From: Naegleria gruberi
Taxonomy: Eukaryota
DNA length: 64,000 bases
Direction: 5' to 3' (one strand)
Assembly (NCBI GenBank): GCA_000004985.1
Contig: GG738848.1
Below are positions 11,446-59,587 of the stretch, in pieces. Every line of letters begins with the position of its first letter. The stretch's first letter is position 1. The position numbers and the translations under genes are program-made. The notes under the pieces were generated by a model that worked only from the letters and a program-made list of their open reading frames with translations, had not been told where the DNA came from and did not search any database.

Positions 11446-14142
11446 TTAGGTCTTTTTCTTCTTCTTTACACCACCAGCATCAAATTGAATGAATTGTAAT
11501 TCATACCTAGGAATTCTGAAATGCATAAATGGCATTCCAGCATTAGCAGCTTTGTTATTTGTTGAATTGTTATTTTGGTTTCGTTTTCTCTTCTTTTCCA
11601 CTGGTTGAGTAGTAGTGGTAAGAGGAGGTGTTACAGATTTGGTTTCTGATTTGACATTCGTATCAGTAATGTTATCAACTTGTCCTGAGGCAACTATACT
11701 ACTGCTACTACCAAAATTGGACATTGGTTGTGCATTCATACTCACAAAAGATGAGGTCAAATTGGAATTAACATCATTATTTTGAACATAGTTCCAGAGT
11801 GGATCAATATTTGGTCCTACAAGGGAGTTGGCAATGTCATTATTAACTGAGAGTAAGGAGTGTGGTTGTTCATCAGGATTGACAAGATCGAAATTGAAAT
11901 CTCCATCATCAAAAAGAAGAGCAAATGAATCATCAACAGAAATTGACATTCTATGTGACGCCTTTCTAGCCATAGTGACTGGAGCAACGGATTTTCTTCT
12001 GTATGAGGAAGGTTGTAAGAGAATTGAGGTTTTGTGAATATTCTCAATTTCATCCAATTTTTGTTCTTGGACGAAAATAGAGAGCAAGTCACAAACAAAG
12101 CTCAAAATTTGTTCATCTCGCTCACTAAAGTTACCTGTATGCTTGTTCAAAACTTCTAAAACTCCTACAAATTGGTTTCCACTTCCAACTATTGGAGAAC
12201 AAATAACACTCTTTGTTGAAAATCCTGTTGTTTTGTCCACTTCTGGTGCAAATTTAGAATTACTCCTCACATCAGGTATATTCACACTCTTTCCACTTTG
12301 GAAGCATGATCCTGCAATCCCTCTGTCAGAAGGAATTCTAATTTCATCTTCGCCAATTGCAACTTGTGAAATGAGCTCGTCTGTTTGTCTATCGTACATG
12401 AATAATGTTGTTCTTTCTGCATGTAACATTCTGGTAATACATGAGATTATGTGTTGGAAGAAAACTCCAACCGAGTGCAAGTCCTGTCTTAGAACAGATA
12501 AACGTCTATAGACACAACCCTTCTCTGTTGTTGACTCTCCAATTTTAACATGGTTTTCTTTCTTTTGGGTATTGTTGTTATCTCCTCCATTTTCAGCACT
12601 ATTTTCAACAACTGGAGTTGTTGATGAGGATGCAACCTTTTCTTGAGGCTCAATTCTAAAGAATGAAGGATACATATCCATAGCATACCTGGTTGGGAAG
12701 GCAGCTGGTGGAGTATTCTCTTCACCCCACAATTCAAAGGTTTGGGTCAATTCGTGTCTGTCCTTTTCTTCTGTATTGGAGGTTGTTTCTGGGTCACTGC
12801 TGGATACTTCTTTTTGAGGTGGGAATTTGTAGGTGTTAAGAGTTTCTTCGTCCTTTTTAGGTGGTGGGAATGTAAAGGCAGTAAGGGATTGATAAATATC
12901 ACCCTTTGGAGTGCCATTAGCAGAACCATTTGTACTATTTGGTGTTGAAGGTTGAGAAGTGGAAGTAGCGGATGGTGGCAGCATTGAGCCCATCATTTGT
13001 TGTTGACTTTGAATTGCTCTTGAAATAATATCAGGATTGCTGGAAATGTTGATATTATTGTAGAGATCTAGCATTTTTAGAACTTGTTCATATTTAGACT
13101 TGGCAAAAAGTAAGCAATGTTCTGCAACAACTGCTGTTCCGTATTGTTGAGCTTTGGCCCATTGTTGAAAAACGTTATCCACAGAAAGAGTTCCAATAAT
13201 AAATTCTTGGCATTGACTGAGAAGTGCACTCAGCTGATAGAATTTAGCTGCTTGATAAAGATCCCAAATCTTGTCAGATCTTAGAATGGTACAGTCAGTA
13301 TAAACAAATTCCAAAATATTATAGAAAATATCAGCAGATGCATCTTGAATCTCAATTTCCAAAATGGATGTATTGGAACATTTGACGAGAATTAGTTGAT
13401 TGAAATAATTACTCCTAGCACATAAAATTAATTTGTGAGCATAAAACTTCTTTCCTTGAATAATAAACGTCACATCACTTAAAATTGGATTATTAAAGAA
13501 TTGTTTGATGCTTGATCCCATGGTGTTACTCTTACTAATAAATGTTTGAGCTGTGGACTCTGTTATGGAACTTTGCCCCAATCCAGCCTGTCCTGCATTG
13601 TTAGTGGAACTAGAGGATGTAGAAACTGGTGATTGTGTAGGTTGTTGTATCTGCAAGATGCTTGAAGAGTTGGGAGAAATTTGTTGCAAGTTATTGTTAT
13701 TTGAAAGTTGATTTACGACCATATTCGAAAATTGATTATTCATGGGTGGTGAGGATACTTGGATTACTTGTTGATTTGAATTTTGTTGATTTAACAATTG
13801 TTGTAGCATGTTTTGTTGTTGATTTGTATTGTTTTGTTGTTGGTTTTGTTGAATAAGATTCATCAGGTTGTTGAAAATACCCATTGCTTGCTGATTATTA
13901 TTGTTAGAGGGTGATGGTTGGTTGTTTTGCATTTGTTGTTGTTGTTGGAAGAGATTGATTATACTATTCATGTTGTTATTACTATTACTATTGTTCTTCA
14001 TCATGTTGAGAAGCGAATTGATCTCATTCATTGAATTATTACCATTATTATTATTGTTGTTATTGTTGCCATTGTTATTATTCATCATCATAACTAGAGC
14101 ATTCAATAACTGTCCCGAATTTGCCTGATTATTCGGTAACAT
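11446..14142 (-). CDS. Poly-N/Q-rich regulatory protein with a BTB/POZ domain and a cNMP-binding-type GAF domain (NKFDE-like signature); 898 aa
   Basis: ATG at 14142. There are long Asn and Gln homopolymer tracts at both ends. The BTB fold reads DVTFIIQGKKFYAHKLILCARSNYFNQLI. The GAF domain reads LFMYDRQTDELISQVAIG...GIAGSCFQSGKSVNIPD...SPIV..NQFVGVLEVLNKHTGNFSERDEQIL, and the NK..FSE.DE motif matches the cyclic-nucleotide-binding GAF signature. The composite upstream region (14143..15111) may hold 5' UTR exons. Confidence 0.7.
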   Translation of the reverse strand: MLPNNQANSGQLLNALVMMMNNNNGNNNNNNNNGNNSMNEINSLLNMMKNNSNSNNNMNSIINLFQQQQQMQNNQPSPSNNNNQQAMGIFNNLMNLIQQNQQQNNTNQQQNMLQQLLNQQNSNQQVIQVSSPPMNNQFSNMVVNQLSNNNNLQQISPNSSSILQIQQPTQSPVSTSSSSTNNAGQAGLGQSSITESTAQTFISKSNTMGSSIKQFFNNPILSDVTFIIQGKKFYAHKLILCARSNYFNQLILVKCSNTSILEIEIQDASADIFYNILEFVYTDCTILRSDKIWDLYQAAKFYQLSALLSQCQEFIIGTLSVDNVFQQWAKAQQYGTAVVAEHCLLFAKSKYEQVLKMLDLYNNINISSNPDIISRAIQSQQQMMGSMLPPSATSTSQPSTPNSTNGSANGTPKGDIYQSLTAFTFPPPKKDEETLNTYKFPPQKEVSSSDPETTSNTEEKDRHELTQTFELWGEENTPPAAFPTRYAMDMYPSFFRIEPQEKVASSSTTPVVENSAENGGDNNNTQKKENHVKIGESTTEKGCVYRRLSVLRQDLHSVGVFFQHIISCITRMLHAERTTLFMYDRQTDELISQVAIGEDEIRIPSDRGIAGSCFQSGKSVNIPDVRSNSKFAPEVDKTTGFSTKSVICSPIVGSGNQFVGVLEVLNKHTGNFSERDEQILSFVCDLLSIFVQEQKLDEIENIHKTSILLQPSSYRRKSVAPVTMARKASHRMSISVDDSFALLFDDGDFNFDLVNPDEQPHSLLSVNNDIANSLVGPNIDPLWNYVQNNDVNSNLTSSFVSMNAQPMSNFGSSSSIVASGQVDNITDTNVKSETKSVTPPLTTTTQPVEKKRKRNQNNNSTNNKAANAGMPFMHFRIPRYELQFIQFDAGGVKKKKKT

Positions 14143-17642: not shown

Positions 17643-17844
17643 TGGTGGGTCATCTTAAGTATGTCAGTGATGGTTTCTTGAATTGTTGATTGACTCATAA
17701 TGTGTTGCAATTTTTTCAACTTGAGTTTTACTTTCCTTCAGTAAAACTCTCTATTTAACCTAAATTTTCATTGTAAAATTTAGGTTGACTACGTTACCTG
17801 GTTGTCTATTGTTTTTACAATATAAACTTACGTAAGGTGTGGAC
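17643..17844 (-). repeat. Retroelement repeat A2 (202 bp)
   Basis: Identical to 21688..21889. It follows B1 immediately after the ORF A stop. Confidence 0.85.
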
Positions 17845-17887
17845 CTTACTACCATTTATAGTAAAAACAATGAGACAACAAGCTCGA
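17843..17887 (-). repeat. Retroelement short repeat B1 (45 bp)
   Basis: The sequence catttatagtaaaaacaatgagacaacaagctcgaaaacattgag repeats at 17229..17273. It is flanked on both sides by the decamer gaccttacta. Confidence 0.8.
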
Positions 17888-17914
17888 AAACATTGAGACC
17901 TTACTAGCATAAGT

Positions 17915-20900
17915 TTAGAAGCCCATCAAGTGTGAACCGTTTCTATCACCTCTAAAGTTAGCTCGAAAATATCTGTCTATAGCATCTGAATTCCAACCAC
18001 CCATGGCCTTGATGGTAGCATCAGGGATACCCATAATGGCAGCCTCCGTGGCTCCACCAATTCTCAACGAATGAGAAGAGTACTTTCCTGGATCAGCTTC
18101 GATCCATGTTGCAACCTGAGTTAAGATGTAAGAAATCTCAACTGTATTTAAAGAAAAACCACCGGTAAACAAAAACTTTCCTTTGTCTCTTGAATCAAGT
18201 AATTTTTGAAGCCATTTCATCGGACACAATTCAGAACCTGTCGCTTCGATACATGATTTTCTTCCTTTCTTATCATTCTTCACTTTTCTCACTGTTATAC
18301 TAAACCCCACCACCGGGAACTTCACAATCTTTAGATCCTCTATTAATAAACCACCCAATTCTGAACCCCTAAACATTGACCTTATACCAAAAATCATTAG
18401 GCACGTGTATAGAACATATGATTTTTCTTTAACAAACTGTCTACCAACAATTACCCATTTACAAATAAATTCTATTCTCCATGGATCTCTTTCTCTCTTT
18501 GTCGCCACTGTAGCCAGATTGCACATACCCTTTATCACCATCTGTACTCTAATGTTTACTGTAATATCCTCCCAACCAATCCTTTTACAAAAATGCTTAA
18601 TAGCATACATTGCACTTCGACAGTTATTACCAGATGGTGTTTTGATGAACATAAAGGTGAGAAATCTGACTACCATTTCACTAGTTGCTGGTGGAACCTC
18701 TTTTTGCTTAATAAGAAAGTTGATAAATCTATTCCAATAACTTTCATAGTTGTCTGTTGTGGATATTTCAATTGAACATGACATTAATGTATCTGCAATC
18801 TTACTCAAATCGTGACTCTGCAGTCTACTAATGTTGCTCTTATGGTCCAAAATCCTTTGCATGGTTCTAGGTTCCCTCCTTGGGAGGCTCTGAAATGATT
18901 TCCATCTAGATTCATAAAACGAATTTGATAACTTTCTATTATCTTCCACCACCACCTCTTTTTCCATACTGGATGAACCAATACCATAACTGCTTTGGAC
19001 TCTAGACAATGTTGTAATACTCTCCCTATTAGATTGAAAGGTACGCAGCACCAATTTACCACTGGCTCTGTCCAAAGGTGAGAGAATGAATCTGCTTTCT
19101 CTCTTCTGCTGGTCTTCTTTCTCACTGTATATGGTTTTGTCTTGAAGTTGTAATGAGAGGCGAATCTGTCCCATCCTATTGATACATCCAGCTGCTTCTC
19201 TACTAATTGAAAAGCTTCTTTGGTAATCTCCCAATCTGTTGGGTCTTTCTCTTGAATATTTCTGCTCAGATTGTCCGCTACTTGATTCTCCTCCGAAGGT
19301 AACCATTCTAACGAAAGCAAACGGATGTCGTGTTCGAAAATAATGCGCCATATTAGTTGAATCAATTGATTCATAATGGGAGACTTTGCTCTTCCCTTCA
19401 TTATACAATATAGAGCCACCTTTGAATCCGTGTAAACAATTAAATTCTTTCCTTTCAAAAGATGTGACCATTCTTTTAGGGCAAGATAGATCGCTCTCAC
19501 TTCTAATACATTGATATGTTCTTGGCATTGTTCTCCCTTCCAAAAACCTTGTAGTTTCAAATTTCTTTCTTTGTGGAAAACTCCCCATCCCAATCTCGAT
19601 GCATCTGTCCAAAAGTATTCCACTAAGCTTGGATATTGGAACACCTTTCCATTCCAATGGTCCAAGTTGTATAAAATCCATTGGAGATTGAAAATTACAT
19701 CTCGGTCTCTGATGCGAAATTCGGAATCCCAGCCTCCAATATTCACCTAGTCCACCACTAAAGAATAAATCGGATTCAACATCACCCTTGCAGGTTGGAA
19801 ACAGTCTACATAAGCAATTATAATACCAGTCATCCGAAACAGTTCTCTGGATGTTACTTTCTGATCTTGGTGATACTTGGCAAGGGCTATGGAAATACGA
19901 GTTCGAATTTTCTCTAATGTAGCTTCTGTCATAATTAATTTCCTGCTGACCAGATCTATCTTGATCCCAAGTAGTTGAAAGACTTTTAATGGAGTTAACT
20001 GACTCTTCTTCTTTTCGATAACTACACCTAATTCTGCACATACCATTGTAACGAATGTATTGTTCCTTAATGCAGATAAATAGGAACCAAAATGTAATAA
20101 ACCAACATCGTCTAAGTAATTGGATGGTGTTAAAGAATCTGATCTCAAAAAATTGATAAATACATTCATCATTTGTGTAAAAAAGTATGGAGATCCATTC
20201 CATCCAAATGGAAGGACTGTGAATTGCAAAACCTCTTCCTCTACTTGAATGGCAAAGTATGGTCTGTCCTTCCTTTTTACCTTCATCTGGTGATATCCGG
20301 ATTTCATATCGAACATAGAACCCCAAATTTGATCTGTCTTGTTCATTGGTACGTGTTCTAAAAACTTCTTCAACGTGTTGTACTTGAATTTGGGGATAGA
20401 ACAAAACCGATTGAGCGGTCTTAAATCGATAATCAGTCGGTATGATTCTTTCTTTGGGACCAGCCGATACTTGGCTATCACTTTTGGATTGTGACAAGGT
20501 TCCAAAGCTCCAATCTCTTTCAAAATACTCACTTCTCTTTTTAACCATTCTCTCTCTTCCAAAGACCATTCTTCTAAATTTACCTTTCCATAGTATGGAA
20601 CAAATTCTTCGTTTGTTTGAACTGATACACCCTCTTTCAACATATCCACTATTTCCATTGAAGCTCCTTTCTTCCTCCAGGTATCCCATTTGTTCGAAAT
20701 GGAATGAATAGCCTCTCTTCTTTCTTCTACCTCTCGGAAAAAACAAATCATCTACATACTCTGAACCCTCTCTTTTATTTCTCTTAGGGCAATCTTTGAT
20801 CAGATGGTTTGGGTCATTACAAATAAAGCATTTCTTCACTTTCTTCATACCATTAGCACTACCAAACATATTCACCTTTTCCTCTGCCTTATCTTTCTTA

Positions 20901-21754
20901 TCATAAATCTTGGCATTTGCATAGGATTTAACAAAACTTGTCTTACCCTTCTCCTTATGGTCGAACTTGAGTAGTTTTTCTGCCATCTTAAGCTTATCCA
21001 TGTTCTCACGCCATAATGGATTGCTTTCTATAAACGCCAATTTAGATGCTAATTCTGGATTGACGGCTTGAACTTGTAATTGGAAAGCTCTTGTCTCTAA
21101 GTTCGCAACCATTTTCTTCGTATCATCTATTTCTGGGAAAAGATTAGCTATCTTCATTGTAAAAGCAGAATCCTTTCTCAAATTCTCATATTCTGTAAGA
21201 AGACTAGAATTAGTTGTTGGCAATGGTGTGTAGATTGTATCTGTGTATTTTCTAACTTCAGATTCAGCTGCCAATTGTTGTAAAACACGTTCTGTTTCAG
21301 CTTTTTCCAGCTTCATCTGTGCAATCTTAGCATCGATTATTTGTTCATAAGCCTTAAATCTCTTCACATCTTCTTCTGATACCTCTTCTCTCTTTCTCTT
21401 GTTAGAGCCATCTTCAACTTCTACAACTGACTCACCATCGTCCTCTTCGTCATCATCATCGTCATCATCATCTCTTGCTTCCTTGAATGCATGTTTAATC
21501 TCATCCTTTAACTTCTCTACATCTTTACTCTTGCCACTTGTGCAAACCGTAAACTTGTCTGCACCAATAAAGTCAACAATTGCCTTTGCCAATACCTTCT
21601 TTTGGCCAGAAACTTCAATTTCCAAGGTACCTATAATCTTTTGTATCAAGGCCTTTGTTAACTTTCCAACAGCACTTTTATCATGCTTCTTAAGTATGTC
21701 AGTGATGGTTTCTTGAATTGTTGATTGACTCATAATGTGTTGCAATTTTTTCAA
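17915..21754 (-). CDS. Retroelement ORF A: Gag-like N-terminus with CX2CX4HX4C zinc knuckle, then a C-terminal tyrosine recombinase, in one uninterrupted 1279-codon frame
   Basis: Starts MKKLQHIMSQ within repeat A1. The knuckle is CFICNDPNHLIKDCPKR. The YR boxes are HSLRIGGATEAA and GGWNSDAIDRY at the C-terminus. The middle ~600 codons have no recognisable domain yet stay open while overlapping the RT/RH frame. Confidence 0.75.
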   Translation of the reverse strand: MKKLQHIMSQSTIQETITDILKKHDKSAVGKLTKALIQKIIGTLEIEVSGQKKVLAKAIVDFIGADKFTVCTSGKSKDVEKLKDEIKHAFKEARDDDDDDDDEEDDGESVVEVEDGSNKRKREEVSEEDVKRFKAYEQIIDAKIAQMKLEKAETERVLQQLAAESEVRKYTDTIYTPLPTTNSSLLTEYENLRKDSAFTMKIANLFPEIDDTKKMVANLETRAFQLQVQAVNPELASKLAFIESNPLWRENMDKLKMAEKLLKFDHKEKGKTSFVKSYANAKIYDKKDKAEEKVNMFGSANGMKKVKKCFICNDPNHLIKDCPKRNKREGSEYVDDLFFPRGRRKKRGYSFHFEQMGYLEEERSFNGNSGYVERGCISSNKRRICSILWKGKFRRMVFGRERMVKKRSEYFERDWSFGTLSQSKSDSQVSAGPKERIIPTDYRFKTAQSVLFYPQIQVQHVEEVFRTRTNEQDRSNLGFYVRYEIRISPDEGKKEGQTILCHSSRGRGFAIHSPSIWMEWISILFYTNDECIYQFFEIRFFNTIQLLRRCWFITFWFLFICIKEQYIRYNGMCRIRCSYRKEEESVNSIKSLSTTWDQDRSGQQEINYDRSYIRENSNSYFHSPCQVSPRSESNIQRTVSDDWYYNCLCRLFPTCKGDVESDLFFSGGLGEYWRLGFRISHQRPRCNFQSPMDFIQLGPLEWKGVPISKLSGILLDRCIEIGMGSFPQRKKFETTRFLEGRTMPRTYQCIRSESDLSCPKRMVTSFERKEFNCLHGFKGGSILYNEGKSKVSHYESIDSTNMAHYFRTRHPFAFVRMVTFGGESSSGQSEQKYSRERPNRLGDYQRSFSISREAAGCINRMGQIRLSLQLQDKTIYSEKEDQQKRESRFILSPLDRASGKLVLRTFQSNRESITTLSRVQSSYGIGSSSMEKEVVVEDNRKLSNSFYESRWKSFQSLPRREPRTMQRILDHKSNISRLQSHDLSKIADTLMSCSIEISTTDNYESYWNRFINFLIKQKEVPPATSEMVVRFLTFMFIKTPSGNNCRSAMYAIKHFCKRIGWEDITVNIRVQMVIKGMCNLATVATKRERDPWRIEFICKWVIVGRQFVKEKSYVLYTCLMIFGIRSMFRGSELGGLLIEDLKIVKFPVVGFSITVRKVKNDKKGRKSCIEATGSELCPMKWLQKLLDSRDKGKFLFTGGFSLNTVEISYILTQVATWIEADPGKYSSHSLRIGGATEAAIMGIPDATIKAMGGWNSDAIDRYFRANFRGDRNGSHLMGF
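18805..20751 (-). CDS. Retroelement ORF B: reverse transcriptase plus RNase H, in the +1 frame relative to ORF A, with one in-frame stop at 19747..19749
   Basis: RT motifs are LPFGWNGSPYFF and SNYLDDVGLL. The RNase H motif is LIVYTDSKVALYC / TDASRLGWGVF. The two track ORFs 19747..20751 and 18805..19746 share one frame and are split by a single stop. The frame begins exactly where the Gag part of ORF A ends, which suggests a frameshift junction near 20751. Confidence 0.75.
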
Positions 21755-21889
21755 CTTGAGTTTTACTTTCCTTCAGTAAAACTCTCTATTTAACCTAAAT
21801 TTTCATTGTAAAATTTAGGTTGACTACGTTACCTGGTTGTCTATTGTTTTTACAATATAAACTTACGTAAGGTGTGGACCTTACTACCA
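21688..21889 (-). repeat. Retroelement repeat A1 (202 bp), contains the ORF A start codon
   Basis: Identical to 17643..17844 by direct inspection. Confidence 0.85.
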
Positions 21890-21940
21890 ATTATTTAGAA
21901 TTTACAAATATAGATAATAATATACAAATAATCGGCAAGA

Positions 21941-23689: not shown

Positions 23690-24800
23690 TGAGTTTCCAT
23701 AACTTTCAATCTGCTTGCTGTATCTTTAATTTATTTTCATGATTTTCTTCATATTCAAATATTCTTTGTAAATAGTAGAATATGTAAATATCTGAATGAA
23801 TACTTCCTGGAGGTAGTTCAACACCAGTGTATGTTCTTCCAATAGTGACATAGCCTTGCATTCCTTCATCGTAAATGTGGAATGAATCGTTTCTTCATGC
23901 CTGGAATTTTAAAATCCAAAACACAGCTGGAGAATATGCAAGATCAGTTTGAACAGCAGCTTCATCATGTTGATTAAGCTTAGATGGATTATTTTTAAAT
24001 AATCTAATTGAGTAATGTCATAAATATTTCTAACAGGATCATTAACAGATATTGCATGTCTGAGACATTTCCAGGATTCTTCTAGTGGATGTTGAAATGT
24101 AGTTACAACTTTGTACAAGTGCATGCCCTCGTGCTTTTGATCTTCATCAAACACATATTGAGTTTTGAAAGATTTCCAACTTTTTCGATAATGGAGAGGA
24201 AGAGGTTCTAAATTTCTACAGGATGAGGTTTGTTGATCATTATTTTGATGCAACAATTATAACCTTTAAAGCCGAATATTAAAACAAGATACTGAGTCTT
24301 CCATAACACTGATTGCAAAGTAAATCTCTCGATCCTCAATTGTTTTTCTGGTCAACTCTTTTGGTTTGAATCTAAAATCCACATAAAACCTTTGGAAATG
24401 TCAATCGCAATTGAACGAGTAAATAATTCGCCTTGTTTTTCGAGAAATTCTACAATCATAGAACTTCTAGCAAATCTCAAAAACTGATCGCTCATCAAAT
24501 CCAAAGAGACTGAGAAAATTACATCTTTGAACAATTCATCAAGATCCAATTTGTACTTGTTGCCATAGTGTTAGAACTTTTGACTTTGTGACAATTCCTA
24601 AATTTAGTTCATTCACACTGCCTGTTTTGATGAAGGTGTTAATCAGTTTGCTGCACTGATGGTTCATGTTTGACTGGTTGATACAATTTTCTGAACTCAT
24701 CAATTTCGTTAAGGAAAAGAATGGTTTCTTCACTATGTGCAACTTGTTTCTCAAACATCATCAATTTGCACACCTGCCGTGCATCTCTATTCTTCATCAA
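23690..24800 (-). pseudogene. RGS-domain gene remnant, disrupted by at least two +1 frameshifts inside the RGS domain
   Basis: ATG near 24818. The RGS-like sequence is split over three frames: ...FEKQVAHSEETILFLNEIDEFRKLYQ, then KLINTFIKTGSVNELNLGIVTKSKVLTLWQQ, then LDLDELFKDVIFSVSLDLMSDQFLRFARSSMIVEFLEKQ. The downstream ORFs 23909..24256 and about 23690..23900 carry no recognisable domain. There is no room for introns at the shift points. Confidence 0.4.
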
Positions 24801-25148
24801 GTTTAAATTTCTCCTCATTTTTCAAATTAGCAAACAGGCCATTCAATGTTAAAACGATGCCTATTTTAACGAACCTATCAACTATTAGATATGGTTTTAT
24901 TAAGCAAAACTACATTGTAACAAACTTTGAAATGACGCTGGGTAGCTTTCTCTTTTTATACAACAACAACTCATTGGATAGAGCAAATCCCACTTCTAGG
25001 CACAGCCAGCAATAAATGGCATCTAAGGAAAGCAAATTCTGAATCACTAGTGTTCTTTATAAATCCATATTGAAAGCCTGAAGCAAAGCAAAGCCTCAAC
25101 ATAGTGCTTTAGGGAGATGGTTTTCGTCGGGTTGACCCAAAATTGGCT

Positions 25149-26030
25149 TATTTCAAATAAAAATTGTTTATAGATCTGCAAAGTTCATTCTCTTTTCACA
25201 ATTTTTCTTCAAATGGATAGCAACTTTGTCACTTGCATTATTTTGTAAATATTTTGAAAGTAAGGTGGCAGCATTGTTGAAATTCTCATTGAAATATTCT
25301 TGAGTTGCTTCATTGTAAATATTCCATTGTTCATTCTTCTCCTTTGCATTCAATTCATACATCCATTCATCAGCTTCATTATTAATACTTTCACCCAATT
25401 CGTAAACTTTTCTTGGTGCGTGAATTTGACTTTTATCTGCAATGTTTGGATATGAATAATAATCATCCAACACAAAATTCTTAAAATCAACAAATCTAAC
25501 TTGAAACTTGTTGTCAATTTTCTGGAATAATTCATGAGAAATAACTATTGGAATATCCAACTCTTTTGCAGTTTCAATCATGCCTTGAATATTGTATTGA
25601 ACACTTCCAAAAACACCAAAGTTCATAATCTCCTTTGTTCCCACATTACCACACATACATTCTTGAGTTGTTGCAACAATATGGAAATCCAAATTCAATG
25701 TCGGATTATTCTCATAAACAATATGCTGTGATAGCTTATTTTCCTGTAAAGTTATCAATTTTTTCAATAAGGAATGACAACATTGAAGACCCTTCATTTC
25801 ATGTTTATGTTGATCACCTGAAGCATTGAAGAGAATTGTAACTGTTTCATTTTCAAATTTACCAACTTGTCCATTACTAATCTTTGCTACATAGTTAATA
25901 ACATCAAAAACATCTGTCAAAATGGAAAGACACTCTTTTGGATTGGCATTGTTGAACAAAATATTGACACCGTCCAAAAAGGCACTAACAGCAGTAACTC
26001 TCTTCTTTTCCAAATATAGAGAGAACATGT
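25149..26030. repeat. Inverted segmental duplication or gene-conversion tract shared with 58250..59102 (about 97% nt identity)
   Basis: The antisense ORFs 25350..25535 and 58716..58901 are identical. ORFs 25635..25829 and 58422..58616 differ at 5 of 64 residues. Similarity ends about 20 bp past the stop codons. Confidence 0.7.
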
Positions 26031-27612
26031 TGACGACAGAACTTTGTTGTTTGAGTAATTTTCTTGAAAGAATGCCTGAATGAGAGTTAGTATTAGAATT
26101 TGAAAACGAGGATGAGTCTTTGTGCTTTTCTTGCAAAGGTGTTTCTTCAACTTTCTCAACTTCTCCATCTTCTGAATTGTTGTTGTCCAACTTACTCAAC
26201 AAGTGACCTGGAATAAATTTTCTGTACAATCTAATTCTTTCTACCATACCTATAAAGTGAACTTGCAAGGATTTCACTTCAGAGAGTAAAGACCTAGACA
26301 AACGAAAATTATCCAGTTCCATATTCGAAACCAATTCAAATGAGTCTATTAAATTTTGGAATGGCTTAACAACCATAATAGAAAACACAGTTGTCATAGT
26401 TAATCCAAATATAACTACCACAACAGACCCAACAATTGCACAAACAATAGCAAAAATCATATTACCAATATAATTCCATTTTGGGACGCTGTACACTAAT
26501 ATCCAATCAATACCTTCATCAATACACATTCTTCGAACTGATACATAAGTGTCATCAATTATAACTGTAACATTGGTGTTACAAGCAAGATTTTGAAAAT
26601 CATTATTGAATTGTAAAGCTATTTGATCTCCAAATTTGGTGACACCACCCCCATGGGTTGAGAATGTCTTTCGAGTGGAATCTCTTTCTGTGAACACGTC
26701 TTCTAGAAAACCTGAAGCAATCATGTTTTTTGATTGTGTTTCAAATACAAACCCAACAGTTCCTGTAATATTGACTGTTTGTTTGTAAAGGAACTCTGAT
26801 AAAACATCAAGATTCATAACTATTGTTACAAAATCATTGATTTTACCATAGGATGATATGCTACTGGTACAAGCAATATTCAACTGATTAGAGTTTGTTG
26901 AAGCAACAAATGATGGAGAGAAAATAGTCTTCCCTGGATTCCTTGTAGCTGTCTGAGAAAGGAATGTGTAATCAGTTGAGTTGACCACCCTATCAGGTTT
27001 TGTTTGATGGATACAAACATCGTTATGCTCTGGGTCTATACAATTCCAATAGCTTTGATTCTGTCCCTGATTCACTGCTGTGTACATTACTGATGTTTCG
27101 TCAACCGTAATTCCATACATGTTACCACTAGCATCACCAATCGAGAGCATGTTCAGAAAATCAATGTGAGATTTAATAACTTTCTGCAATCTAAATGTTC
27201 GATCCATTATGAGAGTTTGATTAGTGAAATCAAAATTAGGGTCGAGTTGTGATTTTGTGGATTCTGTTGCCAATACCACATTCTTAATAGAAGTCTCTGT
27301 GTAGGAAATAATGACATCAAATTCTGATTTTCTCACCTTCTCACTCAATGTACCAACCTCTGAACTGAATGCTGTTATCCATATCGAGTCAAACACGACT
27401 GTACATGACAATATCAAGAGAAATATAATAAAGACAAGAATAAATTTGATGGAAGAAAAAAAGCTTAAAACCCTCGAACGACTCTGAATCGTTTTCCTTG
27501 GTGCCTCAGCTGGTGAAGCGTTTTGGTCTGAATTTTTGCCTGGAACCTTTTCCTGTAGTTTTTGCTCACTATTAGGCTTTGAAGAGGTAACAAGTGGTTG
27601 AATACGAGTCAT
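25168..27612 (-). CDS. Receptor-type class III nucleotidyl (adenylyl/guanylyl) cyclase, copy 1: TM1, ~350-aa extracytoplasmic domain, TM2, linker, cyclase domain; 814 aa
   Basis: ATG at 27612. TM segments are FILVFIIFLLILSCTVVF and IFAIVCAIVGSVVVVIFGLTMTTVFSIMVV. The cyclase-homology domain is degenerate in its first motif (VTAVSAFLDG...FHIVATTQECMCGNVGTKEIMNFGVFGSVQYNIQGMIE). It is a paralog of 56712..59083. Confidence 0.7.
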   Translation of the reverse strand: MTRIQPLVTSSKPNSEQKLQEKVPGKNSDQNASPAEAPRKTIQSRSRVLSFFSSIKFILVFIIFLLILSCTVVFDSIWITAFSSEVGTLSEKVRKSEFDVIISYTETSIKNVVLATESTKSQLDPNFDFTNQTLIMDRTFRLQKVIKSHIDFLNMLSIGDASGNMYGITVDETSVMYTAVNQGQNQSYWNCIDPEHNDVCIHQTKPDRVVNSTDYTFLSQTATRNPGKTIFSPSFVASTNSNQLNIACTSSISSYGKINDFVTIVMNLDVLSEFLYKQTVNITGTVGFVFETQSKNMIASGFLEDVFTERDSTRKTFSTHGGGVTKFGDQIALQFNNDFQNLACNTNVTVIIDDTYVSVRRMCIDEGIDWILVYSVPKWNYIGNMIFAIVCAIVGSVVVVIFGLTMTTVFSIMVVKPFQNLIDSFELVSNMELDNFRLSRSLLSEVKSLQVHFIGMVERIRLYRKFIPGHLLSKLDNNNSEDGEVEKVEETPLQEKHKDSSSFSNSNTNSHSGILSRKLLKQQSSVVNMFSLYLEKKRVTAVSAFLDGVNILFNNANPKECLSILTDVFDVINYVAKISNGQVGKFENETVTILFNASGDQHKHEMKGLQCCHSLLKKLITLQENKLSQHIVYENNPTLNLDFHIVATTQECMCGNVGTKEIMNFGVFGSVQYNIQGMIETAKELDIPIVISHELFQKIDNKFQVRFVDFKNFVLDDYYSYPNIADKSQIHAPRKVYELGESINNEADEWMYELNAKEKNEQWNIYNEATQEYFNENFNNAATLLSKYLQNNASDKVAIHLKKNCEKRMNFADL

Positions 27613-27952
27613 TTTCTTTTGATTGTGTTAGAGTTTGTGCGTATCGTATTCGGTTTGTTGAACTGTACTTATCAACACAGACGTTATCGCATCAATGGAA
27701 CAATGATCCAGCACTGTGTGGAAAGAGACAACATCCAAAAGTGTCTGGCTTAGTCTTAATATGAAATTATGGGCGAATATAAAAAATATCACCATGGCTG
27801 TAGTAAGGCTCGAGCATTCTGTTGGAAAATATTGTTTCGGGGAGATATTGGTGATCTGAGATACGATAACAAGAGGAGAATTTATTTGTATTTCCTTCTG
27901 CTGCTTGTAAAGCTTGATGCAAGCTATACAACTTGTGAAACAAGGACAATAA

Positions 27953-28180
27953 TTATAGACGTTTCCTATTGATTGCCAATCGAATATTTACGATAGGAAT
28001 ATCGTGCGTGTGGGCATTGATCAATTCCATCTCTTCATTATTGGCCCTATCACCTATTTCGTTTGTTTCATCCAAATGTTCCAATTCTGATTCGTTTATT
28101 TCATCTTGGTTAGAAGCACTTTGCTTTGGTGCTTCAGTTTCCTTTCTCTTCTCTCTTTTTTTCATTTTGAAATTATTCAA
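27953..28180 (-). CDS. Small acidic hypothetical protein (75 aa); could instead be non-coding upstream sequence
   Basis: It has a clean ATG and a 75-codon ORF (MNNFKMKKREKRKETEAPK...), with no recognisable domain. It sits between the cyclase copy-1 promoter and the GNAT gene. Confidence 0.2.
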   Translation of the reverse strand: MNNFKMKKREKRKETEAPKQSASNQDEINESELEHLDETNEIGDRANNEEMELINAHTHDIPIVNIRLAINRKRL

Positions 28181-28222
28181 TAAAACTAATCAATGTATTT
28201 TCTCAATTTAGTCAAAATCCAA

Positions 28223-28858
28223 TTACATTTCAATTTCCTTTTTGAAATGGACACAGCCATCTCTTTCACAAACTTGAATAAAGCCCAACTTTTTGTAGAG
28301 TTCCACTGCTTCAATCCAGGGTGTGTCTGTTTCCACAACAAGCCAGCTCTTCATTACCTTATTTTCATCATCTTTCAATTTCACATATAATTGACCTGCC
28401 TTTGAAATTAAATATTTCATGATTTGGAAAGCCAATCCTTTTCTTCTATATTCTTTAATCACAGAAACCCTCCCTACTCTCAGACAATACTCATTTTCAC
28501 TCTCCCTTTGCTTGGAATTATCCGAATCTTGATCATGATTATTTTCCACAAGTTTTGATGTGAAATGTTCCAAACTCAATGCACCAGTCCCTATCATTTC
28601 ATTATTACTAGTCGAAAACATGGCACAAAAAACCAAATAATTTGCATCCAAATCATTCAAATCTTGATTAAAACTTTCATCGTATTCATCTCCGAATCTT
28701 TCTGCAAGTCCTTGATGAACAATTTGTGCTGCAACTTTCTTTTGCTCAACTGGTGCTGAGCAAGAATAACTTCCTGCAATCTCTTCAATACGAAATTGTT
28801 GATCATTCATTTTTTTCTTATTGATTTTCATAACAACCTTATCAAACGGAGTTAGCAT
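28223..28858 (-). CDS. GNAT-family N-acetyltransferase, 211 aa
   Basis: ATG at 28858. The acetyl-CoA-binding motif A is RVGRVSVIKEYRRKGLAFQIMKYLISKA. Confidence 0.7.
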   Translation of the reverse strand: MLTPFDKVVMKINKKKMNDQQFRIEEIAGSYSCSAPVEQKKVAAQIVHQGLAERFGDEYDESFNQDLNDLDANYLVFCAMFSTSNNEMIGTGALSLEHFTSKLVENNHDQDSDNSKQRESENEYCLRVGRVSVIKEYRRKGLAFQIMKYLISKAGQLYVKLKDDENKVMKSWLVVETDTPWIEAVELYKKLGFIQVCERDGCVHFKKEIEM

Positions 28859-28897
28859 TTGCCTTTCTCCGGCGTTACTTTTTCATCTGTAAAAAAA
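28859..28897. promoter_or_regulatory. 39-bp head-to-head intergenic spacer between the GNAT (-) and cathepsin X (+) start codons
   Basis: The start codons are at 28858 (minus) and 28898 (plus). The spacer is an A-run flanked by ...ctccggcgttactttttcatctgtaaaaaaa. Confidence 0.5.
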
Positions 28898-30241
28898 ATG
28901 AATAGAATTTGCGCTGTTGCTTTCCTCATCGCAGCCTTGTGTTTGGTTTCTGTGGCTTTTGCCTCTACTGAACAAAAGAGTTTCCATCAGAGAAATCCAT
29001 GTTATAGAAAGGATAAACGTTATGATGGTTCCGATCCACGTTATGTCAAGTCTGTTATCAAAACTCCTAGACCACACGATATTTATGCTCCACAAGATCT
29101 TCCATCTTCTTGGGTATGTTTTTATAGCAAATGTAGTAATTTGTATTTATCAAATGATTCAAAAATCGACGATTGATTGGATGATTTTTGTGTGGATGAT
29201 GAAAATTGTGTGGATAGGATTGGAGAAATGTTAGTGGTGTTAACTATTTGTCTGTTACTAGAAATCAACACATTCCAACATATTGTGGAAGTTGTTGGGG
29301 TATGTTTAATAGTATTTAAATTGTTTTTTCTAATTTTCAAAAGCTCACGGAAGTACTTCTGCTTTGGCTGATAGAATTAACATTGCCAGAAAGGGACAAG
29401 CTCCACGTGCTCTCCTCTCTGTTCAACACGTTATTGCTTGTGGTGATGCTGGAAGTTGTGAAGGTGGTGATGATGTTCGTAAGTGTCAAATGTAATGATT
29501 AATTAATATTAATACGTCAACTATATAGCTGTCTATCAATATGCTCATGATTATGGTATTCCTGATGAATCTTGTAACAATTATAAGGCTCAAGATCAAG
29601 ACTGTACTGCTTTTGCTAAATGTGGTACTTGTAATTCCACTGGATGTTCTCCAATCACAAACTTCAAGAGATGGAAGGTTGGAGAATATGGTAGCATTGA
29701 TGGTGAACATCAAATGATGTCTGAAATTTTTGCTCGTGGTCCAATTTCGTAAGTATATTTAATTGAATTTCCAAAACTGAAATAATTAGTTGTGGTATTG
29801 GTATGTTAATTTTGAATTTAATGAAAATTAATTGTAATTAGATGCTACTAACAAGTTGGAAGCCTACACTGGAGGTATCTTTGAAGAATTTGAAATCTTC
29901 CCAATGATTAATCACATCATTTCAGTTGTTGGTTGGGGAGAAGAAAATGGAAAGAAGTATTGGATTGTTAGAAACAGTTGGGGCGAACCATATGGAGAAC
30001 AAGGTATGTAATAATAATATAATAATAATTAATGATTATCATCTTGAAATAATGATTTATAATTATTATTTTGAAATAATTGCTCAACTACTACAGGATT
30101 CTTCAGGTATGTTATCATTATTTTGAAATAACTAAATTTTTACTCAATTATTTAAATTTTAACAGAATTATTAGAGGTACCACAAGATTCTACAATTTGG
30201 CAATTGAAACACAATGTGCTTTTGCTGTACCAATTGTTTAA
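28898..30241 (+). CDS. CTSZ: Cathepsin X/Z-type papain-family (C1) cysteine protease, 303 aa, 8 exons; join(28898..29113,29218..29299,29344..29478,29529..29748,29790..29800,29842..30003,30097..30106,30166..30241)
   Basis: A signal peptide [22 protein letters not shown] is present. The spliced product has [45 protein letters not shown] with the active-site Cys, [24 protein letters not shown]...[21 protein letters not shown]...YNLAIE and the C-terminal FAVPIV. Every junction uses GT...AG and all exon phases close. Exon 5 is 11 nt (TTGTGGTATTG) and exon 7 is 10 nt (GATTCTTCAG). Introns measure 104, 44, 50, 41, 41, 93 and 59 nt. Confidence 0.8.
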
Positions 30242-42429: not shown

Positions 42430-45400
42430 ATGAATTCTAGAAACATCTACAGCAACAATGCAGGGTCGGTTGTTGGCTCAGATAGTTCTCAAGAATCACA
42501 CAATACTTCCAGCACAAATTCTTCATCATTTCAACACAAAATACGAGTGGAAGTCTTTAACTTTTTCTTTGCCTCACAGAATGTATCTAAAAAGCAAGGA
42601 GGTAAACGATTTTTTGCAATCCTATTATTGTACATACTAATTTATTGGAGTTATATATGGCTTCCTGTATTAAGCCCACAAGATTTTCACTTTGGTGCTT
42701 GGGGTTCATGGATATTTTCAGTATTTAACTATACAACAAGTTTATCAATGGATTTACTTCCGTATGAAGGAGCAATTGCTGTGGCTAGTATAACCATGAC
42801 TTTTATTGCAATAACCGTTTGTATTACTATTATTACTCTGTGGGCTGTAAAGTCTACTTCTCAATACATTAAGAAGATTCAAATGATTCTTCACATCAAT
42901 GCCTACTTAATAATAGTACTCTCTGCTCCTATAATATTTATTTTGACTAGTTTTGTGGATTGTGATTATGGATACAACCCAAGAGAATCATTGATAAATT
43001 TTGTATCTCACCATGCTAATGGTACTTCAATAAGTTCAACAGCAACTCTCACACCCATGCTCAACAGATTTACAAGCATGGAATGTTATTCAACAAATAA
43101 CATCATCTTGATGGCTGTCACCCTCTCATTCATTGCCTTATATTTTGTATTGTGTGTATTGGCCAACTTTTTGGTACCAAATTCACATCCATTAAGCTTT
43201 GCCCCAATGATAACGGAGGGTTACATCTTTCCTATTGGTATGAGTTTGGGAAATTGCATTGGAATTTTGGTACATTTCCTCATACCAGCAGAGTATGCTT
43301 TTGTGAGGTCTATTGTACATTTAGTATATGGCATGTGCATGCTTGTTGTTATTATGAAGAGTTTGCCAATGTATAGAAGATATGAAAACACAATTGTATG
43401 TGGAGTGGTATGCGCAAGATTTGGCACATCAATAGGAAGTATCATTTCCTTTTTTGTAAATGCATCGAACACTGCTGAAATTGGTATTGGAATGTGGGCT
43501 TTAACAACAGGACTGGCTGTTGGATTGGGTTTAGTGGGAGCTGTATCTATGGATATTTATACTCGTTACGTAATTTACTTTATCAAAACTAGATATATCT
43601 TATCAGTAAGATCATCTGATAGATCACTTGAAAAGGAAGCAACAAATATTTATTTCAAATTGGAAGAGGATGGAACCATGTACAAAATGATGTTATATAT
43701 GAGATTTGTTTTAATGAGATATGCTAGAACAAAGACAGAGGAATTAGAAGACAAGTACGACTTGGTTGCATTGATTTCATTCATTAGAGGAATAAGCTCT
43801 CAAAAGTGCTTCAGCGATATTGAACTGTTATCTATGGCTGGAACACTTGTTGGTTATCTGATGGTTGATGAAATGCACTCTTCATATTTTGCTCAAGCTT
43901 TGCTAAAGAGGGCTCTTAAACAGCGACCAGATGTCTATAAAAGATTCCTCATTCATCAAAGATTAAGGGAAGTAGAATTAACAGGTGCTGATGATGTTAA
44001 GGGAAGTAGAACCGTGCTTGAGTTGAAATCTATAATGCTCAATATTCAAAAATATATTACTGAACTCACTTCGTTACATCGTCACTTCTGGAAGGAATTG
44101 ATGCAGGAAATTGTGAACTATGAAAAGGCAGAAAATATAGTTGCAAGATGCTCTGTTATCAACCATGAATTAGATTCCATGTTCGACAACATTTTATCAC
44201 TGTACTATAATGACAAAACTGTACTGAGAACTTATGCCAGCTATTTAGAAAATTTCAAATTCAACAAAGAGCTTGCCAATGAATATTACACAGAAGCATC
44301 AAGTTTGGAAGAAGAAGAATCAAGGATTCCTCTCGCTCAAAAAGGTAATAGAAGGACAAAGAACAAGGTATTCCCAGATGTTCAGGAAAGTGTGGACATA
44401 TCTAAAAAGCTAGGCCCAAAAGGTTTGGCCGTTGGTAGAAGTGTTGCATTTGAAAATTTGGAAACAGCAAGTTACTTGTCTAGCAATATGGATTTTAATG
44501 GGGTTGAGAATGCTAATGCTGATACAAAGAGAGAAATTGGGTTTAGAAATGCCCTTTCTCTTCCTGATTCACACACCATTCACATTATTACTTTCGTTTT
44601 CTTTATTGTATTTGCTTTCATATTATTAGTTGTTGGTTTGGTTATTGGCTTACAATTCTCCAAAGGTGTAACAATGAATGTTGTTAATGTAATTGAAGCT
44701 TGCTCTCCAATATGCGCCTTGAGCAATGTTTTACAATCTGTTCGAGCATTCCAAATGCATTCAATGTTCAACTCTACCCTTGGCTCTTCCAATATTCCAT
44801 TAACTTTAACATCAGAGTCCTACATTGATTTGGCAAATACTAAGATTTTAGTTTCCAAATTCAAAGATATTCTTGTAAATCTGCAACAAAAAGCCTACAA
44901 TGCCAAGTTCGATGGAACTGTTTATTCAAATTATCATGAGGTTTACAGTGAAATTTACATGCCAAACATTGGTGATGATTCAAAATTTTATAACCACACT
45001 ACAAAGATCAATGTGACAGTGACAGATGTAACCAATACCCTTATTAAGATTTCTGATCAAATTATCAATTCAAAGGAAAATGATATAACTAAAACACTGA
45101 ACAGTTATGGATTCATGTTCCTTTACATCAATCATGAATCAATTACAGACATATATGACAAATTTTGTAATATCTTTACTGATTCTGCCAAGACTGAGGC
45201 CCTAGCAATCAACAATATCTTCACGATATATATTTCTGTGTCTCTGGCCACGTTTATATTGTGTGGAGCACTTTACATGATATTCTCAAGAAAGGAATTG
45301 ACAGTTGTTAGGGAGCAAATCAAACTCATTCAACATAATGTTTCCAAGAATGAAATTGGTAAATTATTCCATGATTTGGGTAAAAAAGTTGGTGACGAGG

Positions 45401-54680: not shown

Positions 54681-54903
54681 ATTTATTTTTACAAAATTTC
54701 AGTCGGAAGTGATATTGAAGTTAAAATAATTCAGGCTGAATTACATCTCTTGACATTTAAAAACTCCAATTAGACACTTCAATGAAAGATGAAGTTTTTT
54801 GTCGGGCGCTATGTCGTTCGCTTAGTCGCAAACATGCCGCCAGTTGACTAGAACCGATCATTAAGAACTGCACCAATGTTAAATAATACAACATATCAAA
54901 AAA

Positions 54904-56541: not shown

Positions 56542-56711
56542 TACCTATATTCTTCCGTTGCGCCTAATAATAAAACAAACTACCTTACTGCATCTTTGTT
56601 CTATCTCTTGAACTAATTCCGTGAAGTCTTCACATCCTATTAAGGTCAAATTACCATCCTCTTTGCAGGCAATAAATCCGAGAAAAACGCATTGCGAATA
56701 ACTCAAAGAAA

Positions 56712-59083: not shown

Positions 59084-59102
59084 ACAATTTTTATAAACTC
59101 TA
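58250..59102. repeat. Inverted partner of the 25149..26030 duplication or gene-conversion tract
   Basis: See 25149..26030. The 3' boundary lies about 20 bp after the stop codon. Confidence 0.7.
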
Positions 59103-59165
59103 ATTGCGGATTGGTATTTAAGACAGAGGACTGATTGTAAAAGGATAATTTCGAATAAGAAAAAA

Positions 59166-59585: not shown

Positions 59586-59587
59586 AA

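What the first reader, a model, noticed from the sequence alone, without database searches (positions are those of the whole stretch)
25149..26420. Inverted paralogous receptor cyclases with a sharply bounded ~97%-identical 3' tract (gene conversion or recent segmental duplication)
The two single-cyclase receptor genes (25168..27612 on minus, 56712..59083 on plus) are only moderately similar in their N-terminal extracytoplasmic halves (roughly 45-65% at protein level) and in an S-rich linker. Their TM2-proximal region and whole cyclase domain are nearly identical at nucleotide level, and the identity stops about 20 bp beyond the stop codons. The antisense ORFs are identical or near-identical, which confirms DNA-level identity. 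This step-like identity profile is the signature of gene conversion between inverted repeats about 31 kb apart, or of a chimeric duplication.
Basis: seen in the sequence. Interest (0 to 1): 0.7.

Follow-up and report, generated by a model that had tools for sequence, protein, structure and literature searches.

The report
Gene conversion between inverted Naegleria receptor paralogs
Two old, oppositely oriented copies of a Naegleria gruberi sensor-cyclase-like receptor gene have had their 3' thirds recently overwritten with the same sequence by gene conversion, an ordinary process, and one copy looks like a decaying pseudogene.

Summary
Gene A (25168..27612, minus strand) and gene B (56712..59083, plus strand) are old paralogs. 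Synonymous divergence (dS) is 1.16 over the 5' 1.3 kb. It falls to 0.077 in an 824-nt tract, T1 (A 25157..25980 / B 58271..59094, 17 mismatches). T1 ends 11 nt past the stop codons, not about 20. A second 117-nt tract, T2 (A 26167..26283 / B 57992..58108, 3 mismatches), is separated from T1 by an unconverted linker with dS 1.0. TM2 is not part of either tract.

Permutation tests, the drop in synonymous divergence, unrelated flanks and two independent metagenome contigs rule out chance, selection on the protein and repeat collapse. Interlocus gene conversion between inverted paralogs 32 kb apart is the best explanation.

The window is Naegleria gruberi NEG-M (A = NAEGRDRAFT_62622). The proteins combine a dCache-type ectodomain with a divergent class III cyclase-fold domain. 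That domain gets no Pfam hit and lacks canonical catalytic residues.

B carries a frameshift here and a 1.9-kb deletion in a related strain, so it is probably a pseudogene. Strain comparison hints that conversion is recurrent and runs from A to B.

This is a new instance of a well-known process and of modest interest.

The parts
25168..27612 (-). Gene A, an intact 814-aa ORF (N. gruberi NAEGRDRAFT_62622 / XP_002682077.1). Layout: cytoplasmic tail, TM1, dCache-type ectodomain (about aa 81-385), TM2, juxtamembrane helices, S-rich linker, divergent class III cyclase-homology domain (about aa 533-715), helical C-terminal extension.
   Evidence: ORF. Exact-sequence look-up. AF2 model. Foldseek PDB matches. 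Family-profile matches to PDB cyclases.
25157..25980 (-). Conversion tract T1, arm in gene A. It covers the cyclase-homology domain, the C-terminal extension, the stop codon and 11 nt of 3' flank.
   Evidence: 824 nt with 17 mismatches to 58271..59094. dS 0.077 against 1.16 in the 5' part. Segment score 638 against a null maximum of 59.
25981..26166 (-). Unconverted S-rich linker plus the first CHD strand, in gene A.
   Evidence: 73% nucleotide identity, indels of 3, 3, 15 and 3 nt, dS 1.0.
26167..26283 (-). Conversion tract T2, arm in gene A. It encodes the juxtamembrane helix SEVKSLQVHFIGMVERIRLYRKFIPGHLLSKLDNNNSED.
   Evidence: 117 nt with 3 mismatches. Run score 86 against a null maximum of 41 in 2000 permutations. 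3 synonymous differences at 22.8 synonymous sites, where about 13 are expected at the background rate.
56712..59083 (+). Gene B, the paralog of A. A 1-nt deletion relative to A near 57455 creates a TGA at 57459-57461. The annotated product NAEGRDRAFT_62636 is only the 249-aa N-terminal ORF. B is probably a pseudogene.
   Evidence: ORFs. Alignment. Frames. Exact look-up. The orthologous locus in a related strain carries a 1920-nt deletion.
57992..58108 (+). Conversion tract T2, arm in gene B.
58109..58270 (+). Unconverted linker in gene B.
58271..59094 (+). Conversion tract T1, arm in gene B.
56748..58667 (+). Segment of gene B that is missing from the related-strain contig L002. The deletion junction has 3-nt GCA microhomology.
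   Evidence: blastn of L002 against the window. Junction sequence.

Best explanation
A and B are old paralogs of a Naegleria/Willaertia receptor family with a dCache ectodomain and a cyclase-homology domain. They lie tail-outward in inverted orientation, 32 kb apart, on one N. gruberi NEG-M scaffold.

Their 3' third (T1, 824 nt) and a short juxtamembrane segment (T2, 117 nt) were homogenised recently by interlocus, non-reciprocal homologous recombination, that is, gene conversion.

Inferred mechanism: a break in or next to the 3' part of one copy was repaired from the ectopic inverted copy without crossover. At the 3' side the tract ends where homology ends, 11 nt past the stop. At the 5' side it ends at the diverged, indel-rich linker, which heteroduplex formation cannot cross. 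T2 is either a second event or a discontinuous part of the same one.

What is shown: the two tracts, the roughly 15-fold drop in dS, and the independence of the two loci. What is inferred:
- B is a decaying pseudogene. It has a frameshift here and is mostly deleted in a sister strain.
- The net direction of transfer has been A to B.
- Homogenisation happened at about the time of, or after, the split from that sister strain, so it may be recurrent.
For: - Identity steps from 55-75% to about 98%.
- dS is 1.16 in the 5' part, 1.0 in the linker, 0.077 in T1 and 0.14 in T2. dN/dS is 0.27 in the 5' part, so both copies were constrained for most of their history.
- Max chi-square is 207 against a null maximum of 19.6, and both tracts exceed every permutation.
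- The flanks are unrelated and the neighbouring genes differ. Only two copies are present in the window.
- The metagenome contig L001 (the A ortholog, 97.3% identical) carries the same 5' part, T2, linker and T1 junctions. L002 (the B locus) carries the T1-to-B-flank junction.
- Timing: ortholog dS between the two strains is 0.014-0.08, against paralog dS of 0.077 in T1.
- Recurrence and direction: within the tract, B of strain L matches A of NEG-M at 9 of the 10 sites where NEG-M A and B differ. d(Bw,BL) is about 2.8%, greater than d(Aw,BL) at about 1.0%. At site 25537 both paralogs have T in NEG-M and both have G in strain L.
- All 7 amino-acid differences in T1 map to the NEG-M B lineage, while the 4 A-specific changes are synonymous.
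- Naegleria genomes encode homologous-recombination and mismatch-repair genes (PMC9928731).
Against: - Only two sequences come from the window's own genome, and no reads are available. B's 5' tract junctions are not independently confirmed, because strain L lacks that segment.
- Strain L data come from a short-read metagenome assembly in which near-identical repeats can be merged. One site (25531) does distinguish the A and B copies of strain L.
- The four-sequence overlap is only 152 nt, with a single informative site.
- The excess of B-lineage changes is marginal. My hand calculations from the counts give a binomial p of about 0.05 and, for nonsynonymous versus synonymous changes, a hypergeometric p of about 0.05.
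- No GC-biased conversion signal is present: GC3 is 0.27 in T1 and 0.30 in the 5' part.
- The donor cannot be identified from an outgroup, because no N. gruberi or other Naegleria protein is a one-to-one ortholog of A or of B.
Confidence: 0.85

Rival explanations
1. Chimeric or partial segmental duplication. A copy of the 3' third of one gene was recently inserted, inverted, behind the 5' part of the other, without homology-guided conversion.
For: The identity is sharply bounded and ends just past the stop codon. With only two sequences this looks the same as conversion at the 3' boundary.
Against: The near-identical DNA sits in exact collinear register inside a full-length old paralog. There are two separate tracts, T1 and T2, with an old linker (dS 1.0) between them. 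An insertion would need two precise events. No target-site duplication or extra sequence is present at the boundaries.
Confidence: 0.07
2. Strong purifying selection, or nucleotide-level constraint such as an antisense ORF or an RNA element, keeps the cyclase domain identical while the sensor domain diverges.
For: T2 and the cyclase-homology domain are the most conserved protein segments across the family.
Against: Synonymous divergence drops about 15-fold, from 1.16 to 0.077. Identity continues through the stop codon into 11 nt of flank. The first CHD strand and the linker, which are also coding, keep dS 1.0. Other family members are only about 30-50% identical in this domain. No antisense ORF of 100 aa or more overlaps T1.
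Confidence: 0.02
3. Assembly artefact. Reads from one locus were placed at both loci, or the contig was joined wrongly through a repeat.
For: No reads or coverage data could be examined. NEG-M is a draft assembly (my own knowledge).
Against: The arms differ at 17 of 824 sites in T1 and 3 of 117 in T2, and each runs into unique flanks. Independent MEGAHIT contigs from a different sample reproduce A's structure across T2, linker and T1, and reproduce B's T1-to-downstream-flank junction.
Confidence: 0.04

Closest known systems
Interlocus (ectopic) gene conversion and concerted evolution between dispersed or inverted paralogs. Examples are human gamma-globin genes, CYP21A2/CYP21A1P and other gene-pseudogene pairs, Y-chromosome palindrome arms and yeast duplicated genes (my own knowledge).
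   Same: A sharply bounded tract of near-identity lies inside otherwise old paralogs. Synonymous divergence collapses inside the tract. The tract ends at the edge of homology. One partner is a probable pseudogene. The repeats are inverted on the same chromosome, tens of kb apart.
   Different: The organism is a heterolobosean amoeba in which such events have hardly been described. There are two tracts split by an unconverted linker. The direction and number of events are inferred from only four sequences.
Bacterial dCache-linked class III adenylate/guanylate cyclases and chemoreceptor ligand-binding domains (PctD, Tlp3, TlpQ, McpB/C; CyaB, Cya2, CyaC).
   Same: The predicted ectodomain has a double-Cache fold between two TM helices. 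The C-terminal domain has the class III cyclase fold: Foldseek TMt is 0.5-0.64 for the ectodomain and up to 0.78 for the cyclase domain, and the profile E-value to CyaB is 2.3e-12.
   Different: No Pfam model reaches even E = 10. The first metal-binding Asp is replaced by Phe, and by Cys, Tyr or His in relatives. The second is Glu. The transition-state Arg is Met or Leu. The family also has its own EWMYEL...helical C-terminal extension.
Trypanosomatid receptor-type adenylate cyclases (ESAG4/GRESAG4) and Dictyostelium ACG (my own knowledge; mentioned in PMC9928731).
   Same: A large lineage-specific family of single-cyclase-domain membrane receptors with an extracellular sensor, in a protist. 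Trypanosome family members also undergo recombination between paralogs.
   Different: The ectodomains differ: periplasmic-binding-protein-like in trypanosomes against dCache here. There are two TM helices here rather than one. Catalytic residues are not conserved here.

Membership tests
Interlocus gene conversion tract | A segment of significantly elevated identity between paralogs, compared with the rest of the alignment | tested here: met
   Max chi-square 207 against a null maximum of 19.6. T1 scores 638 against 59, and T2 scores 86 against 41.
Interlocus gene conversion tract | The drop applies to synonymous or neutral sites, not only to amino-acid sites | tested here: met
   dS is 0.077 in T1 and 0.14 in T2, against 1.16 in the 5' part and 1.0 in the linker. 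Identity continues 11 nt past the stop.
Interlocus gene conversion tract | Two separate genomic loci with unrelated flanks, i.e. not alleles and not a collapsed repeat | tested here: met
   The neighbours and flanks differ. The arms differ at 20 sites. Independent contigs L001 and L002 agree. Read-level confirmation was not possible.
Interlocus gene conversion tract | Phylogenetic incongruence: within the tract, paralogs inside a lineage are closer to each other than orthologs are between lineages | tested here: inconclusive
   d(Aw,BL) is 1.0%, less than d(Bw,BL) at 2.8%. One site (25537) groups the paralogs by strain, and no site contradicts this. The four-way overlap is only 152 nt, and strain L is a metagenome assembly.
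Class III nucleotidyl cyclase (Pfam PF00211, Guanylate_cyc) | Sequence match to the family model above its threshold | tested here: not met
   There is no Pfam hit for A, B, P0002 or P0003, even at E up to 1-10. Homology does show in other searches: phmmer to PDB 2w01 at E 1e-4, and the family profile to 3r5g at 2.3e-12.
Class III nucleotidyl cyclase (Pfam PF00211, Guanylate_cyc) | Cyclase-homology-domain fold | tested here: met
   AF2 gives pLDDT of about 80-90 for residues 533-715. Foldseek matches CyaB 3r5g at TMt 0.78 and Cya2 and CyaC at 0.7-0.75, with probability 1.00.
Class III nucleotidyl cyclase (Pfam PF00211, Guanylate_cyc) | Catalytic residues: two metal-binding Asp, plus the transition-state Asn and Arg | tested here: not met
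   In the HMMER alignments the first Asp aligns with Phe in A (Cys, Tyr or His in relatives), the second Asp with Glu, and the Arg with Met or Leu. The Asn (N674) is conserved. This rests on alignment only; enzymatic activity was not tested.
dCache_1 extracellular sensor domain | A long N-terminal helix followed by two PAS-like alpha/beta modules, between two TM helices | tested here: met
   The AF2 secondary structure and pLDDT of about 85 for residues 55-385. Foldseek matches to the PctD, Tlp3 and TlpQ ligand-binding domains and the McpB/C models. There is no Pfam dCache hit.
Processed or unitary pseudogene status of gene B | A disabling lesion, relaxed constraint and loss in relatives | tested here: inconclusive
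   B has a 1-nt frameshift outside any homopolymer. The ortholog in strain L has a 1920-nt deletion. All 7 amino-acid changes in T1 fall on the B lineage. A sequencing error in NEG-M cannot be excluded, and no expression data are available.

The most novel reading that the evidence does not exclude
Conversion between A and B is recurrent and ongoing in N. gruberi populations, with separate events in NEG-M and in the metagenome strain. More generally, the large Naegleria dCache-cyclase-like receptor family evolves as a mosaic. Output modules are homogenised by ectopic recombination, sensor modules escape and diversify, and pseudogenes take part as conversion partners. This would be direct genomic evidence for active mitotic or meiotic ectopic homologous recombination in an amoeba whose sexual cycle has never been observed.
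Probability: 0.2. Interest if true: 0.45.

Novelty: new member of a known kind. Interest (0 to 1): 0.3.

Why it matters
This is a clean, well-bounded example of ectopic gene conversion in Naegleria gruberi, a lineage where recombination is inferred mostly from gene inventories.

It matters for annotation in three ways:
- NAEGRDRAFT_62636 is the N-terminal fragment of a frameshifted paralog of NAEGRDRAFT_62622, not a stand-alone 249-aa protein.
- Phylogenies of this receptor family built on the cyclase domain will wrongly date the A/B duplication as recent.
- The family is a dCache-plus-cyclase-fold receptor that Pfam misses and that lacks canonical catalytic residues. Counts of Naegleria 'cyclases', and assumptions that all of them make cAMP or cGMP, need care.

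None of this changes general understanding of gene conversion.

Tried and rejected
- Pfam scans of A, B and two N. gruberi relatives found no domains, even at E up to 10.
- A profile-based third search of the big protein collection returned only 3 hits already known.
- No N. gruberi DNA could be fetched for P0002 or P0003, so other paralog pairs could not be tested for conversion.
- The exact-look-up contig search failed for A and for B's N-terminal ORF.
- The JGI metagenome scan gave only one distant relative, at 24% identity.
- A literature search for the metagenome project PRJEB11402 found nothing. The N. gruberi genome paper is not in the library. The 1988 alpha-tubulin paper mentions gene conversion only in its reference list.
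- I looked for a GC-biased conversion signal and found none.
- I considered whether an intron could rescue B's frame. The only GT..AG segment of the right phase is 26 nt long and would remove a conserved ectodomain strand, so I rejected it (the argument from intron size rests on my own knowledge).
- I considered crossover or inversion as the cause. Inversion swaps sequences but does not homogenise them, and L002 keeps the NEG-M linkage between T1 and B's flank.
Full report
**What is there.** The window is 34% GC. Exact-sequence look-up shows that it comes from Naegleria gruberi NEG-M. The 814-aa ORF at 25168..27612 (minus strand) is NAEGRDRAFT_62622 / XP_002682077.1. The 249-aa ORF at 56712..57461 is NAEGRDRAFT_62636 / XP_002681935.1. 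Both lie on a 712,659-nt scaffold. I call the first gene A. Gene B is its paralog at 56712..59083 (plus strand). B is read as two ORFs, 56712..57461 and 57458..59083, because a 1-nt deletion relative to A near 57455 shifts the frame into a TGA. tblastn and self-blastn find only these two copies in the window.

**Checking the observation.** The repeat finder reports an inverted pair, 25157-26025 vs 58226-59094 (869 nt, 96% complementary), with 32,200 nt between the arms. It also reports weaker pairs covering the rest of the genes. A global alignment in 50-nt windows shows 55-75% identity across the 5' 1.6 kb and 94-100% across the last ~0.8 kb. Identity collapses again right after the stop codon.

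Read base by base, the near-identity consists of two tracts:
- T1 is A 25157..25980 / B 58271..59094, 824 nt with 17 mismatches (97.9%). It ends 11 nt after the TAA.
- T2 is A 26167..26283 / B 57992..58108, 117 nt with 3 mismatches.
- Between them lies a linker of 186 nt in A and 162 nt in B. It encodes the S-rich spacer and the first strand of the cyclase-like domain. It is 73% identical and contains indels of 3, 3, 15 and 3 nt.

TM2 is only 59% identical at nucleotide level. The finding's span of 25149..26420 is therefore too wide at its 5' end, and the tract is not continuous.

The step is far beyond chance. Maximum chi-square is 207, against a maximum of 19.6 in 2000 permutations. T1's segment score is 638 against a null maximum of 59. 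With T1 removed, T2 scores 86 against a null maximum of 41.

**Selection or DNA-level homogenisation?** Nei-Gojobori estimates on the codon alignment, with B's frameshift padded:

| Segment | Codons | dS | dN |
|---|---|---|---|
| 5' part | 1-442 | 1.16 | 0.31 (dN/dS 0.27) |
| T2 | 443-482 | 0.14 | |
| Linker | 483-543 | 1.0 | |
| T1 | 544-814 | 0.077 | 0.012 |

The roughly 15-fold drop at synonymous sites, together with identity running through the stop into the flank, excludes protein-level constraint as the cause. The dN/dS of 0.27 in the 5' part shows that both copies were under purifying selection for most of their separate history. There is no GC3 enrichment in the tracts.

**Artefact?** The arms differ at 20 sites and continue into unrelated flanks. 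Their neighbours also differ: a GNAT acetyltransferase upstream of A and an RGS-like ORF downstream, against a cytochrome P450 upstream of B and an F-box protein downstream.

Two contigs from an unrelated ENA metagenome (ERZ929261) represent a strain, here called L, that is about 1-3% diverged:
- L001 (3500 nt) is 97.3% identical to window 28914..25432. It carries the same order of A 5' part, T2, linker and T1.
- L002 (3747 nt) matches 54722..56747 and then 58668..60257. It carries the same junction between T1 and B's downstream flank.

Collapse or chimerism in the NEG-M assembly is therefore unlikely. B's own 5' tract junctions could not be confirmed independently.

**Gene B looks like a pseudogene.**
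- The frameshift in NEG-M is not in a homopolymer.
- In strain L the orthologous locus lacks window 56748..58667 (1920 nt). The junction has 3-nt GCA microhomology, and it leaves the first 12 codons running into a TGA.
- Polarising the T1 differences with strain L places all seven amino-acid differences between A and B on the NEG-M B lineage: I to N, A to T twice, T to S, K to T, N to T and F to I. The four changes specific to NEG-M A are all synonymous. By my hand calculation from these counts the hypergeometric p is about 0.05, which is suggestive only.
- Strain L's A copy also carries a TG-unit deletion in a (TG)3 run inside the conserved CGNVG motif. This is either real decay or a metagenome assembly error.

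**Timing and recurrence.** Orthologous dS between NEG-M and strain L is 0.041 for the A 5' part, 0.014 for the P450 and 0.08 for the GNAT gene. This is comparable with the paralogous dS of 0.077 in T1 and far below the 1.16 of the 5' parts.

L002 covers 427 nt of T1. Within it, B of strain L matches A of NEG-M at 9 of the 10 sites where NEG-M A and B differ. d(Aw,BL) is about 1.0%, whereas d(Bw,BL) is about 2.8%. At site 25537 both NEG-M copies have T and both L copies have G. Site 25531 distinguishes the A and B copies of strain L, so the assembler did not simply merge them.

This pattern is what conversion after the strain split would give, most simply from A to B in strain L, on top of an earlier homogenisation. 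It rests on few sites and on a metagenome assembly, so I rate it as suggestive.

**What the genes encode.** Pfam finds nothing in A, B or two N. gruberi relatives. A single-sequence search of the PDB nevertheless hits the class III cyclases Cya2 (2w01, E 1e-4) and CyaB (3r5g). A profile of nine Naegleria and Willaertia relatives hits CyaB at 2.3e-12 and Cya2 at 2.3e-10.

An AlphaFold2 model of A has mean pLDDT 71.7, with about 85 for the ectodomain and the cyclase-like domain. Foldseek matches it in two places:
- Residues of about 533-715 match class III cyclase domains (TMt up to 0.78).
- Residues 55-385 match dCache ligand-binding domains of bacterial chemoreceptors (PctD, Tlp3, TlpQ, McpB/C; TMt 0.5-0.64).

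The architecture is therefore: tail, TM1, dCache, TM2, helices, S-rich linker, cyclase-homology domain, helical EWMYEL extension. It is conserved across the family. The family has 803 representatives at E up to 1e-3 and 60 at up to 1e-30. UniRef labels one relative, from N. lovaniensis, 'Guanylate cyclase domain-containing'.

In the alignments the first metal-binding Asp is Phe in A (Cys, Tyr or His in relatives), the second is Glu, and the transition-state Arg is Met or Leu. The Asn is kept. 'Receptor cyclase' thus holds for fold and homology. Catalytic competence is doubtful and untested.

**Mechanism.** The best-supported explanation is interlocus gene conversion between inverted paralogs on the same chromosome. 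The steps below are inferred:
- A break in or near the 3' part of the recipient was repaired by copying from the ectopic copy without crossover.
- The 3' limit of the tract is the end of homology.
- The 5' limit is the diverged, indel-rich linker, which would block heteroduplex extension.
- T2 has the same mismatch density as T1 (2.6% against 2.1%). It is either a second event of similar age or a discontinuous part of the same event.

Regions that are already too diverged (the sensor domain, TM2 and the linker) escape conversion. Naegleria genomes encode the required recombination and mismatch-repair genes (PMC9928731).

**Rivals.**
- Chimeric duplication is disfavoured by the two collinear tracts.
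- Selection is excluded by the dS profile.
- Assembly artefact is disfavoured by the arm differences and by the independent contigs.

**Novelty and verdict.** Interlocus gene conversion, including between a gene and a pseudogene and between inverted repeats, is textbook biology. This is a clean new instance in a heterolobosean amoeba. Its by-products are useful for annotation: a mis-annotated frameshifted paralog, and a dCache-plus-pseudo-cyclase-like family that Pfam does not see. Interest is modest.

Noticed in passing
window 17653..21894: A 4.2-kb element is bounded by 207-nt direct repeats (206/207 identical) at 17653-17859 and 21688-21894. It encloses a 1279-aa ORF (17915..21754, minus strand) with a CCHC zinc knuckle and a tyrosine-recombinase (Phage_integrase) domain. 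It looks like a recently inserted DIRS/Ngaro-type tyrosine-recombinase retroelement, next to a prenylcysteine lyase gene.
   Followed up: partly
L001 3270..3285 (corresponds to window 25654..25655): In the metagenome strain, the A ortholog has lost one TG unit of a (TG)3 run. This shifts the frame inside the conserved CGNVG motif of the cyclase-like domain and truncates the product to 654 aa. It is either real decay of A in that strain or an assembly error.
   Followed up: partly
window 25168..27612 (protein residues about 545, 584, 678): The whole Naegleria/Willaertia family lacks the canonical class III cyclase catalytic set. The first metal Asp is replaced by Phe, Cys, Tyr or His, the second by Glu, and the Arg by Met or Leu. 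The family is also invisible to Pfam. It may be a pseudo-cyclase family, or it may need a partner.
   Followed up: partly
window 11446..14142, 42430..46731, 51651..54680: The neighbourhood is rich in signalling genes. There is a BTB+GAF protein, a 1433-aa TPR+PAS protein and a hybrid histidine kinase (HisKA, HATPase_c, receiver). An RGS-like multi-exon gene lies just downstream of A, at about 24350..25015.
   Followed up: no
L002 1..146: The first 146 nt of the metagenome contig L002 do not align with the window upstream of 54722, although the rest is 97.5-99% identical. This may be an indel or rearrangement difference between the strains upstream of the P450 gene.
   Followed up: no
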